This document shows, piece after piece, positions 9,001 through 12,000 of a stretch of DNA of 64,000 nucleotides. The DNA is taken from the NCBI RefSeq assembly GCF_016903815.1, contig NZ_CP069973.1. The stretch is one strand, 5' to 3'. The stretch's first letter is position 1. Each line of letters starts with the position of its first letter. The DNA is from Escherichia coli (GTDB lineage: Bacteria > Pseudomonadota > Gammaproteobacteria > Enterobacterales > Enterobacteriaceae). The position numbers were made by a program.

Positions 9001-12000
9001 GCTATCAGGCTTATCAGCCGGTTACGGCACCGGCTGGCCGCTCTTATGTGGACCAGAGTAAAAACGAATATCACATCAGTCTGACGGGCGGTACTGCGCC
9101 GGGGACACAGCTTGACCGCCAGTTACAGGATGCGCTCGAAAAATACGAGCGGGATAAACGTGCGCGCGCCCGTGCCAGCATGATGCATGACGGTTAAGGA
9201 GGTGACGAAAAATGATGCTCGCGTTAGGTATGTTTGTTTTTATGCGCCAGACGCTGCCACACCAGACCATGCAGCGTGAATCAGATTATCGCTGGCCGTC
9301 AAATTCCCGTATCGGTAAACGGGATGCCTACCAGTTTCTCGGTGTTGGCGAGGAAAACATCACGCTTGCCGGCGTGCTTTATCCCGAACTGACCGGCGGC
9401 AAGCTGACGATGACCACGCTCAGGCTGATGGCAGAGGAAGGCCGGGCGTGGCCGTTGCTGGATGGCACTGGCATGATTTACGGTATGTATGTCATCAGCA
9501 GGGTGAGTGAAACAGGGAGTATTTTCTTTGCAGACGGCACACCCCGGAAAATTGATTTTACGCTGTCACTCACCCGCGTTGATGAATCACTGGCCGCGCT
9601 TTATGGTGATATCGGTAAACAGGCGGAATCGCTCATCGGTAAGGCTGGCAGTCTGGCGACCAGATTCACAGGTATGACGGGGGCGGGATAATGCTGGATG
9701 CACTGACATTTGATGCAGGCAGTACGCTGACGCCGGATTACATGCTGATGCTCGACAGCAGGGATATTACCGGCAATATCAGCGGCCGTCTGATGAGCAT
9801 GACCCTGACGGATAACCGGGGCTTTGAGGCTGACCAGCTTGATATTGAACTGAACGATGCCGACGGGCAGGTCGGGCTGCCGGTTCGTGGCGCTGTCCTG
9901 ACGGTGTATATCGGCTGGAAAGGTTTTGCCCTGGTATGCAAAGGGAAATTCACCGTTGATGAGGTAGAACACCGGGGCGCGCCGGATGTGGTCACCATCC
10001 GGGCCCGGAGTGCAGATTTTCGTGGCACGCTCAATTCCCGCCGTGAAGGCTCCTGGCATGACACCACGCTCGGTGCGATTGTTGAGGCGATAGCCTCCCG
10101 TAACAGGCTGGAAGCCAGTGTCGCTCCGTCACTGGCCGGAATTAAAATCCCGCACATCGACCAGTCGCAGGAGTCTGATGCAAAATTCCTGACCCGCCTT
10201 GCTGAACGCAACGGCGGTGAGGTGTCGGTAAAAATGGGAAAACTGTTGTTTCTCAAAGCGGGGCAGGGGGTGACGTCCAGCGGTAAAAAAATCCCGCAGG
10301 TCACCATAACCCGCAGCGACGGCGACCGCCATCATTTTGCGATTGCTGACCGTGGAGCCTATACCGGCGTAACGGCAAAGTGGTTACACACCAAAGACCC
10401 GAAGCCACAAAAGCAGAAGGTAAAACTGAAACGAAAAAAGAAAGAGAAACACCTGCGCGCACTGGAGCACCCCAAAGCGAAACCAGTCACGCAGAAGAAA
10501 GCGCCAAAAGTACCGGAAGCGCGCGAAGGTGAATACATGGCCGGTGAGGCTGACAACGTTTTTGCCCTGACCACGGTATATGCCACGAAAGCACAGGCCA
10601 TGCGCGCCGCTCAGGCGAAGTGGGATAAACTGCAACGGGGTGTAGCGGAGTTCTCCATCAGTCTGGCTACTGGTCGGGCAGATATTTACACGGAAACGCC
10701 GGTCAAAGTGTCAGGCTTTAAGCGCGTCATAGACGAGCAGGACTGGACAATCACTAAGGTGACACATTTTCTGAATAATAGCGGCTTCACGACGTCCCTG
10801 GAGCTTGAGGTCAGGCTTTCTGATGTGGAGTACGAAACCGAAGATGATGAGTGATGTGTTTTATTTTATCTGTTTGTTTTATAAGGATAAATTAACTAAA
10901 ATGGCAACATCAACAAAACCGGAAGAGGTGCTCGCGATGTTTCATTGTCCTTTATGCCAGCATGCCGCACATGCGCGTACAAGCCGCTATATCACTGACA
11001 CGACAAAAGAGCGTTATCACCAGTGTCAGAACGTGAATTGCAGCGCCACGTTCATCACTTATGAGTCGGTACAGCGATACATCGTGAAGCCGGGAGAAGT
11101 CCACGCCGTAAGACCGCACCCGTTGCCGTCAGGGCAGCAAATTATGTGGATGTAATTACAATCAGGAAGCCCCTCAGTCGAGGGGCTTTTTTTGTCGATG
11201 TGGTCAATATGTGGACGTGACCAGAAATAAATCCTTTTATTTCATGTGATTAGATATCAAAAAATGTCACCAATAACTGACATTGCGGTGTTTCTCCAGA
11301 TGTGGCCCATCTGAGGCCGTGTTGGTGCGCAGCTCGAAGGCTACGTCGAGTCTGTTTTGGCAGTCACCTTAAAGTATAGATAGCTGACAAAAAAGGCTCT
11401 CGTGCTAAAAAAGGCCCCACTTTCGTGGAGCCTTTATTGTACGCTTTTTACTGTACGATTTCAGTCAAATCTAATTACATAGATTGAGTGAAGGTACGAG
11501 TAATAACGTCCTGCTGCTGTTCTTTAGTCAGCGAGTTGAAACGTACTGCGTAGCCAGATACACGGATGGTCAGCTGCGGATATTTTTCCGGGTTTTCCAT
11601 CGCGTCGAGCAGCATTTCACGGTTCATCACGTTAACGTTCAGGTGCTGACCACCTTCGATGGATGCTTCGTGGTGGAAGTAACCATCCATCAGACCAGCC
11701 AGGTTGGTCTTACGAACTTCGTCGTCTTTACCCAGTGCGTTCGGAACGATAGAGAAGGTGTAGGAGATACCATCTTTAGCGTAAGCAAACGGCAGTTTAG
11801 CAACGGAAGTCAGAGAGGCTACTGCACCTTTCTGGTCACGACCGTGCATCGGGTTAGCACCCGGTCCGAATGGCGCGCCAGCACGACGACCGTCTGGGGT
11901 GTTACCAGTTTTCTTACCATACACAACGTTAGAAGTGATGGTCAGAACAGACTGAGTCGGGATAGCGTCACGGTAGGTGTGCAGTTTCTGAATTTTCTTC

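What the first reader, a model, noticed from the sequence alone, without database searches (positions are those of the whole stretch)
11156..11474. Prophage-host junction lies directly downstream of pflB, where E. coli K-12 has pflA
In K-12 the pflB stop is followed by pflA. Here the ~320 bp after pflB leads straight into the ogr terminator and the prophage. The attachment site of this P2-like element is therefore in the pflB downstream region, and pflA is either beyond the prophage or lost. I could not recognise the att core by eye.
Basis: partly seen in the sequence, partly recalled or inferred. Interest (0 to 1): 0.5.

Follow-up and report, generated by a model that had tools for sequence, protein, structure and literature searches.

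The report
P2-like prophage junction inside pflA start
This stretch is the right-hand junction (attR) of a P2-like prophage that inserted into the first five codons of the E. coli gene pflA, at an attachment site already published for phage ΦD145; it is ordinary, except that the phage gives pflA a new start.

Summary
Window 11156-11474 runs from the stop of the phage gene ogr to the stop of pflB (minus strand), and it contains a prophage-host junction.

A four-way comparison places the crossover in a 13-bp core, ACCAATAACTGAC (11269-11281). The four sites were empty K-12 attB, free-phage 11W attP, attL of a lysogen and this attR. To the left lie 113 bp of phage DNA: the ogr terminator, the P2-type Int arm repeats and an IHF-site homologue. 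To the right lies the complete 191-bp pflB-pflA spacer.

The core is inside pflA codons 1-5, so the site is not intergenic. Here attR keeps the pflA promoter region, ribosome-binding site and ATG, followed by an 8-codon stub (MSVIGDIF*).

pflA is not in the window. In reference lysogens it lies beyond the prophage, 31 bp after int on the same strand. Its ATG has become AAG, and a phage ATG 60 nt upstream gives a 265-aa PflA instead of 246 aa.

About 404 of 5,426 complete E. coli genomes carry this insertion. Published coordinate 950293 for ΦD145/ΦD160 falls inside the core, so the site is already known. Whether the chimeric pflA is expressed is inferred, not shown.

The parts
10937..11155 (+). 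ogr, the late-gene activator and last gene of the prophage before attR
   Evidence: 72 aa, 100% identical to P2 Ogr. Hits phrog_603. Annotated ogrK in strain 7/2.
11164..11194 (+). Intrinsic terminator of ogr and the F operon
   Evidence: Hairpin of -19.2 kcal/mol (z = -4.2) followed by a T-run. It is homologous to the terminator annotated in P2 AF063097. On the minus strand the hairpin forms but has no U-run after it.
11195..11222 (.). P-arm Int binding sites: two direct repeats, ATGTGGTCA and ATGTGGACG
   Evidence: Aligns with the annotated 'Int, P arm' of P2. Matches the P2-type arm consensus tgTGGaCa given in PMC3448106.
11226..11259 (.). Homologue of the P2 IHF binding site in attP
   Evidence: Assigned by position, from alignment to the annotated P2 IHF site. 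The left two thirds are identical and the right third has diverged. Binding was not tested.
11263..11285 (.). attR core region. The 13-bp identity core ACCAATAACTGAC is 11269-11281, flanked here by the inverted hexamers ATGTCA and TGACAT.
   Evidence: Four-way alignment of attB, attP, attL and attR. Core coordinates. Host homology starts at 11263-11269 and phage homology ends at 11281-11285.
11257..11283 (-). Stub of pflA: the native ATG and codons 2-5, then three phage codons and a stop (MSVIGDIF*)
   Evidence: Translation. Compared with K-12 pflA.
11284..11474 (-). Complete pflB-pflA intergenic region. It holds the pflB terminator (11407-11435), the region that carries the native pflA promoter, and the pflA Shine-Dalgarno GGAG (11294-11297).
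   Evidence: 191 bp, the same length as in K-12 and near-identical to it. Terminator hairpin -19.0 kcal/mol, z = -4.5. Shine-Dalgarno pairing -6.4 kcal/mol. PMC12338860 states that pflA has its own native promoter; its exact position was not mapped here.
11475..13757 (-). pflB (pyruvate formate-lyase), intact
   Evidence: 760-aa ORF. RefSeq annotation of the identical junction.

Best explanation
Window 11156-11474 is the attR junction of a P2-like (Peduovirus) prophage of the ΦD145 integration type.

How the junction arose (shown): the phage's tyrosine integrase recombined attP with an attB that lies in the first five codons of pflA. attP has the order ogr terminator, P-arm Int sites, IHF site, core, then P' arm inside the int 3' end. 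Strand exchange fell within the 13-bp identity ACCAATAACTGAC.

What is left at attR (shown): the pflB terminator, the native pflA promoter region, the ribosome-binding site and the ATG now lead into an 8-codon stub and then, antisense, towards ogr.

What happens at the other end (shown in the two lysogens examined, E. coli 7/2 and E. albertii NBRC 107761; not visible in the window): the body of pflA is joined to phage DNA. The original ATG becomes AAG. A phage ATG 60 nt upstream, 31 bp after the int stop, opens an in-frame ORF. The result is a PflA with 19 extra N-terminal residues (MSNLTNCNTTENTAAAGATK-SVIG...). Residues 2-246 are unchanged in E. coli 7/2.

How pflA is expressed in the lysogen (inferred): pflA is transcribed from phage signals. 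Most likely this is read-through of the repressor-int lysogenic operon; a weak promoter-like site in the P' arm is an alternative. The extended PflA probably still activates PflB.
For: Junction and core:
- Four-way att alignment. Left of the core attB equals attL and attP equals attR; right of it attB equals attR and attP equals attL.
- Breakpoints of host and phage homology.

Phage module:
- attP architecture is collinear with the annotated P2 attP.
- Int belongs to phrog_1 and is 53% identical to P2 Int. The N-terminal arm-binding part is conserved and the core-binding part has diverged.
- A Cox-like gene and a repressor gene are next to int.

Distribution:
- 403-404 of 5,426 E. coli genomes carry both junctions.
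- 15 phage records carry this attP.
- The E. albertii type strain has the same int followed by a 265-aa PflA.

Published site:
- PMC3448106 Table 1 gives 950293 in MG1655 for ΦD145 and ΦD160. In a K-12 genome the core is 950290-950302, inside pflA at 949564-950304.

Chimeric PflA:
- Translation and comparison with K-12. Residues 21-265 are identical to PDB 3C8F.

Read-through idea:
- In P2, Pc, C, int and attP all lie on one strand with no annotated terminator between them.
- No hairpin with a U-run was found between the repressor gene and the pflA stop in the lysogen.
- The region around the new start is unstructured: -2.8 kcal/mol over 81 nt, and 193 of 200 shuffles fold at least as well.
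Against: - The window ends inside the prophage, and no genome in the collection is identical to it (best 99.6%). Its own attL was therefore not seen.
- In some close relatives the two prophage halves are 1.4 Mb apart after an inversion.
- The new pflA start has no Shine-Dalgarno: -2.1 kcal/mol, which is background level, against -6.4 for the native start.
- The only promoter-like match upstream (TTAACC-16-CATAAT) is no better than chance.
- The repressor promoter of this phage was not located by consensus scan.
- An open in-frame stretch of 19 codons that begins with an ATG is not very improbable by chance.
- There are no expression or enzyme data.
- Identity with ΦD145 rests on a coordinate, not on its sequence.
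Confidence: 0.9

Rival explanations
1. The insertion knocks out or strongly weakens pflA. The 265-aa ORF is an annotation artefact, and lysogens lack the PFL-activating enzyme.
For: - The native promoter, ribosome-binding site and ATG stay at attR, about 34 kb (in 7/2) or more from the gene body.
- ATG is replaced by AAG at attL.
- The phage ATG has no Shine-Dalgarno, -2.1 kcal/mol.
- No convincing promoter was found.
- The next in-frame ATG is Met32, which would remove Cys29 of the Cys29/Cys33/Cys36 radical-SAM cluster motif (motif from general knowledge of PFL-AE; sequence).
Against: - The phage ORF is in frame, with no stop, in E. coli and in E. albertii.
- PflA residues 2-246 are unchanged in E. 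coli 7/2, and the E. albertii copy is full length.
- About 7% of complete E. coli genomes carry the insertion. That would be unexpected for loss of an enzyme central to fermentation (inference).
- pflA lies directly downstream of int with no terminator between them.
- Only catalytic amounts of an activase are needed (general knowledge).
Confidence: 0.2
2. The arrangement is ancestral or arose by an unrelated rearrangement, and is not a site-specific integration. The ogr-pflB adjacency would then not be an att junction.
For: - The core is only 13 bp.
- Some genomes carry a 1.4-Mb inversion that places this prophage end next to a P2-type int at yegR. Rearrangements therefore do occur at this element.
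Against: - The empty site is present in about 93% of E. coli genomes.
- Free phages carry exactly the predicted attP.
- attL and attR are reciprocal.
- Junction sequences are at least 99% identical in 387 of the 404 genomes.
- The inversion genomes keep the same attR and attL junction sequences.
Confidence: 0.02
3. In the genome the window comes from, this is one end of a hybrid, non-excisable prophage, with attR of the pflA type and attL of another type. It would have formed by recombination between two P2-like prophages. pflA would then not be just beyond this prophage but far away on the chromosome.
For: - The closest genome to window 1-12000 (NZ_CP180393.1, 99.6%) has exactly this arrangement. 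It reads yegR, then a P2-type int, the prophage, ogr, attR and pflB, with pflA and attL at 3.77 Mb on the other strand.
- Strains 222, 103 and 98224 show the same split coordinates.
Against: - Other close relatives are collinear: 7/2, 98192, FDAARGOS_1281, NMBU-W10C18 and 405.
- The window holds only the right 11 kb of the prophage, so it cannot decide.
- This rival does not change what attR is.
Confidence: 0.3

Closest known systems
[quoted passage not shown] 2006 J Bacteriol; Mandali et al. 2010 Virology; listed in PMC3448106 Table 1)
   Same: The published site, coordinate 950293 of MG1655, falls inside the 13-bp core found here (K-12 coordinates 950290-950302, pflA codons 1-5). The integrase is of the P2 type with P2-type arm repeats. 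From my memory of the Mandali abstract (unverified), the minimal attB is 22 nt with 18 identical to attP. My ungapped count for AATGCGACCAATAACTGACATT against attP is also 18 of 22.
   Different: None shown. The ΦD145 sequences themselves (AM158280, AM159077, AJ298559) are not in the collections, and the two primary papers are not held. Identity therefore rests on the coordinate. I could not check whether those papers discuss the consequences for pflA.
Bacteriophage P2 attP / Int / Cox site-specific recombination (sites locI and locH)
   Same: The order is the same: ogr, terminator, P-arm Int repeats, IHF site, core, Cox region, and P' arm inside the int 3' end. Ogr is 100% identical, the P arm is almost identical, and Int is 53% identical.
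   Different: The core sequence and the core-binding part of Int differ. P2's site in the yegR/ogrK region is intergenic, whereas this one is inside a coding sequence. Here the stretch between core and P' arm, which binds Cox in P2, also encodes the new PflA N-terminus.
Phages that insert into a protein gene and replace its end, such as e14 and phage 21 in icd (from general knowledge, not tested here)
   Same: The phage carries a substitute for the displaced gene end, so an open reading frame is kept after integration.
   Different: Those phages replace the 3' end, so the host promoter and start are untouched. Here the 5' end is replaced, so promoter, ribosome-binding site and start codon must all come from the phage, and the protein gains 19 residues.
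Elements that integrate at 5' ends of genes, such as Streptococcus pyogenes SpyCIM1 at mutL (from general knowledge, not tested here)
   Same: Insertion at the 5' end separates a gene from its upstream expression signals.
   Different: SpyCIM1 acts as a reversible switch through growth-phase excision. P2-like prophages are classically non-inducible (general knowledge), and nothing here suggests switching.

Membership tests
P2-type (Peduovirus) integrase/att module | Tyrosine recombinase Int encoded next to attP | tested here: met
   In reference lysogen L001, int (331 aa) hits phrog_1 at 1.6e-80 and is 53% identical to P2 Int. int is outside the window.
P2-type (Peduovirus) integrase/att module | Direct arm-type repeats (consensus tgTGGaCa) on both sides of the core | tested here: met
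   P arm at window 11195-11222 (ATGTGGTCA, ATGTGGACG). P' arm TATGGACGCATTATGGACA in the int 3' end. Consensus taken from PMC3448106.
P2-type (Peduovirus) integrase/att module | A core sequence shared by attP, attB, attL and attR, with reciprocal flanks | tested here: met
   13-bp identity ACCAATAACTGAC with reciprocal flanks in the four-way alignment.
P2-type (Peduovirus) integrase/att module | IHF site between the P arm and the core | tested here: inconclusive
   The positional homologue of the annotated P2 IHF site is only partly conserved. Binding cannot be tested here.
P2-type (Peduovirus) integrase/att module | Cox-type directionality factor and a C-type repressor transcribed towards int | tested here: met
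   Cox-like protein (phrog_1831 and phrog_272) and an HTH repressor (phrog_147) next to int in L001. Their function was not tested.
ΦD145 integration class | attB at MG1655 coordinate 950293 | tested here: met
   PMC3448106 Table 1 against the core at 950290-950302 in K-12 record NZ_CP152465.1. This assumes the 2011 paper used the older MG1655 numbering, which that record's pflA and pflB coordinates match.
ΦD145 integration class | Sequence identity of attP and int with ΦD145 itself | not tested
   Records AM158280, AM159077 and AJ298559 are absent from the phage collection searched.
pflA (PFL-activating enzyme) gene present in the interval | A full-length radical-SAM activase ORF | tested here: not met
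   Only codons 1-5 are present, at 11283-11269. There are no blastn hits and only noise-level tblastn hits in the window. A full-length chimeric gene exists beyond the prophage in reference lysogens.

The most novel reading that the evidence does not exclude
The phage attP may have evolved so that integration rebuilds a working pflA from phage parts. Transcription would come from the prophage's lysogenic repressor-int operon. The start codon and a 19-residue N-terminal extension are encoded in what is the Cox-binding region in P2. A prophage would then take over expression of the enzyme that switches on pyruvate formate-lyase, GrcA and TdcE. PFL activation in about 7% of E. coli strains would depend on the prophage's lysogenic state.
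Probability: 0.35. Interest if true: 0.5.

Novelty: already known. Interest (0 to 1): 0.25.

Why it matters
As a junction it matters little. It is a textbook attR of a common P2-like prophage at a published site, already visible in hundreds of annotated genomes.

The useful outcome is the exact anatomy. The site is inside pflA, not behind pflB, and the lysogen's pflA has swapped its promoter, ribosome-binding site, start codon and N-terminus for phage sequence. If that chimeric gene is driven by the prophage's lysogenic operon, a central step of anaerobic metabolism would be under phage control in a sizeable share of E. coli and E. albertii strains. That can be tested with simple experiments.

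The junction also marks a place where two P2-like prophages have recombined to invert 1.4 Mb of chromosome in some clinical strains.

Tried and rejected
- ΦECO1 site: I first suspected the site might be the ΦECO1 site of PMC3448106, because its coordinates in E. coli HS are near 0.92-0.95 Mb. Reading that region showed a 186-type prophage between rcdA (ybjK) and ybjL, so it is a different site.
- WΦ, L-413C and P2: WΦ and L-413C are not among the records that match this attP, and P2 shares only the first 44 nt, the P arm and part of the IHF site.
- Literature: searches linking pflA or pflB with P2-like phages, prophages or attB found nothing relevant. Karlsson 2006 and Mandali 2010 are not held. 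The supplement of PMC3448106 is not held. The pro147 paper gives no att for this phage. Rousset 2022 and the urinary coliphage paper do not discuss integration sites.
- IMG/VR: exact-pattern scans gave only 5 loci, too few for a selection analysis of the extension. The phage arm is at least 99% identical in 387 of 404 lysogens, so dN/dS would have no power.
- Promoter scans: consensus scanning found nothing above chance for a phage promoter in front of pflA, and did not find the repressor promoter.
- Terminator scan: the simple scan missed the ogr terminator. Folding showed it clearly.
- Alternative starts: I looked for another start codon nearer the native N-terminus. There is no in-frame ATG, GTG or TTG between the phage ATG and Met32. 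A GGGGG run sits 5 nt before the AAG codon, but AAG is not a normal start, so I rejected it.
- Source genome: no 100% match in the collection, so it was not identified.

Full report
**1. What is in the window**

- pflB is the 760-aa ORF at 11475-13757 on the minus strand, and focA follows it.
- To the left, on the plus strand, are P2-type tail genes: gpD (9691-10854) and ogr (10937-11155). Ogr is 100% identical to P2 Ogr.
- The finding's interval, 11156-11474, is therefore the stretch between the ogr stop and the pflB stop.
- In K-12, pflB is followed after 191 bp by pflA on the same strand.

**2. Where the junction is**

- A search of 5,426 complete E. coli genomes with window 11100-11520 found full-length matches in 403 genomes. 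In the rest, the match started only at window 11263-11269 and was annotated 'pflB | pflA'.
- A search of phage records with window 10800-11520 gave matches that stop at window 11281-11285, or at 11252 for P2-type phages.
- I then read four sequences: the empty site in a K-12 genome, attP of free phage 11W, attL in E. coli 7/2, whose attR is 100% identical to the window, and the window itself.
- In the four-way alignment, attB equals attL and attP equals attR to the left of the core. To the right, attB equals attR and attP equals attL.
- The shared core is ACCAATAACTGAC, window 11269-11281. An AATG lies 2 nt to its left and is also shared. In attR the core is embedded in ATGTCA-CCAATAAC-TGACAT, an inverted pair of hexamers around 8 bp. 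That is the layout expected for core-type Int sites around an overlap region (inference).

**3. Anatomy of the 319 bp**

Phage part, 11156-11268:
- The ogr and F-operon terminator. The hairpin is at 11164-11191, -19.2 kcal/mol, z = -4.2, followed by a T-run.
- The P-arm Int repeats ATGTGGTCA and ATGTGGACG at 11195-11222.
- The homologue of the P2 IHF site at 11226-11259.
- The last two were placed by alignment to the annotated P2 attP. The repeats match the tgTGGaCa consensus in PMC3448106.

Host part, 11282-11474:
- The pflA ATG (11283-11281, minus strand) and its GGAG (11294-11297; -6.4 kcal/mol pairing).
- The spacer that carries the native pflA promoter. PMC12338860 states that pflA has its own promoter.
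- The pflB terminator at 11407-11435, -19.0 kcal/mol.

**4. The site is inside pflA**

- K-12 reads ATG TCA GTT ATT GGT CGC on the minus strand, and the core covers codons 1-5.
- At attR the reading frame becomes ATG TCA GTT ATT GGT GAC ATT TTT TGA, which is MSVIGDIF*.
- No other part of pflA is in the window. blastn finds nothing and tblastn finds only noise.

**5. Where pflA went**

- In E. coli 7/2 the prophage occupies about 34 kb. At its far end the order on the minus strand is repressor, int, pflA.
- The int stop is 31 bp before an ATG that opens a 265-aa ORF annotated pflA. K-12 PflA is 246 aa.
- The original ATG reads AAG at attL. The phage contributes MSNLTNCNTTENTAAAGATK. Residues 2-246 are identical to K-12 and to PDB chain 3C8F.
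- An in-frame TGA lies three codons before the phage ATG. There is no other in-frame ATG, GTG or TTG before Met32 (sequence).
- The same int and the same 265-aa PflA are present in the E. albertii type strain, next to a different repressor.
- The attL junction is present in 404 E. coli genomes. It is at least 99% identical in 387 of them. In all 60 listed it is annotated 'pflA | phage integrase'.

**6. How it most likely works**

Shown:
- The integrase is a P2-type tyrosine recombinase. It hits phrog_1 at 1.6e-80 and is 53% identical to P2 Int. The N-terminal arm-binding part is highly conserved and residues 60-120 have diverged. This fits the statement in PMC3448106 that integration specificity lies in the core-binding domain.
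- A Cox-like protein is encoded beside the repressor.

Inferred:
- Integration and excision follow the P2 scheme of Int plus IHF, with Cox for excision.

For pflA expression:
- In P2 the promoter Pc, C, int and attP are on one strand with no annotated terminator between them.
- In the lysogen I found no hairpin with a U-run on that strand between the repressor gene and the terminator that follows pflA.
- Read-through of the lysogenic operon is therefore the most economical source of pflA mRNA.
- A promoter-like TTAACC-16-CATAAT overlaps the P' arm, but it is no better than chance.
- The new start has no Shine-Dalgarno, -2.1 kcal/mol, which is background. It does lie in an unusually unstructured A/U-rich stretch and close behind the int stop, so coupling or standby initiation is possible.
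- None of this is demonstrated. I put the chance that the chimeric PflA is made and active at roughly 0.8, and the chance that Pc read-through is its main source at about 0.35.

**7. Comparison with what is known**

- PMC3448106 states that the integration sites of P2, WΦ, ΦD145 and 186 had been identified earlier. Its Table 1 gives 950293 (MG1655) for ΦD145 and ΦD160.
- In K-12 record NZ_CP152465.1, pflA is 949564-950304 and the core is 950290-950302. The published coordinate falls in pflA codon 4, in the middle of the core.
- The site is therefore the already described ΦD145-type site.
- The same table lists prophage ΦECA29 of Pectobacterium atrosepticum under this site identity.
- The primary papers are not in the library. 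I could not see what they say about pflA.
- Fifteen deposited phage records carry this attP: 11W, D8, 12W, P24E6b, P24A7b, S164, several phages plated on Yersinia pestis, and one record labelled Peduovirus P2. Records pro147 and pro483 begin or end at the core.

**8. Caveat on the source genome**

- No genome in the collection is identical to window 1-12000. The best is 99.6%, and strain 7/2 differs at 93 of the first 15,889 positions.
- In the best match, NZ_CP180393.1, the prophage beside pflB begins with a P2-type int next to yegR. The attL-pflA junction is 1.4 Mb away on the other strand.
- That is an inversion between two P2-like prophages, which leaves hybrids with mismatched att sites.
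- The window cannot tell which arrangement applies to it. The identity of attR does not depend on this.

**9. Verdict**

- The kind of feature and the site itself are already known.
- The residual interest is the phage-supplied 5' end of pflA, and it needs experiments.

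Noticed in passing
NZ_CP180393.1 (L013 6300-40270), with coordinates for strains 222, 103 and 98224: In several E. coli genomes the ogr-attR-pflB half of this prophage is joined to a P2-type int beside yegR, yegS and gat. The attL-pflA half lies about 1.4 Mb away on the opposite strand. This looks like a large inversion by recombination between two P2-like prophages, one at the pflA site and one at the yegR site. It would leave hybrid prophages with mismatched att sites.
   Followed up: partly
window 3039-4265 (+), which is L001 33151-34377: A gene annotated as a Shedu immune nuclease family protein sits between the tail-fibre assembly gene and the tail sheath gene of the prophage. 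This looks like anti-phage defence cargo at a variable spot of P2-like phages.
   Followed up: no
L001 14034-16935 (outside the window, same prophage in strain 7/2): Between the replication gene and the portal gene the prophage carries an HTH protein, a reverse-transcriptase family protein and an FRG-domain protein. This may be a retron-like defence cassette at the second P2 hotspot. In JMK_KBN3987 the same position holds a cytosine methyltransferase, an O-methyltransferase and an ATP-binding protein (L013 12225-15740).
   Followed up: no
L012 4312-5751 (E. albertii NBRC 107761) compared with L001 7713-9113: The same ΦD145-type int, identical 331-aa protein as in L001, is combined with a different repressor: 116 aa in E. 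albertii against 103 aa in E. coli 7/2. The int/att module and the immunity module are therefore exchanged independently.
   Followed up: partly
L001 6675-6883 compared with L002 601-2280: Downstream of pflA, strain 7/2 lacks ycaN and ycaK, which are present in K-12. Only a 111-bp gene fragment lies between ycaM and pflA. This is a strain difference unrelated to the prophage junction.
   Followed up: no
L003 2956-3040 (free phage 11W attP) and the equivalent stretch in the prophage: The free phage carries a 27-codon ORF (MSNLTNCNTTENT(A/T)AAGATKSVIGDIF*) that starts 31 bp after int and runs across the attP core. Integration splits it: its first 20 codons become the new PflA N-terminus and its last 3 codons end the stub at attR. 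In P2 the corresponding stretch is the Cox-binding region.
   Followed up: partly
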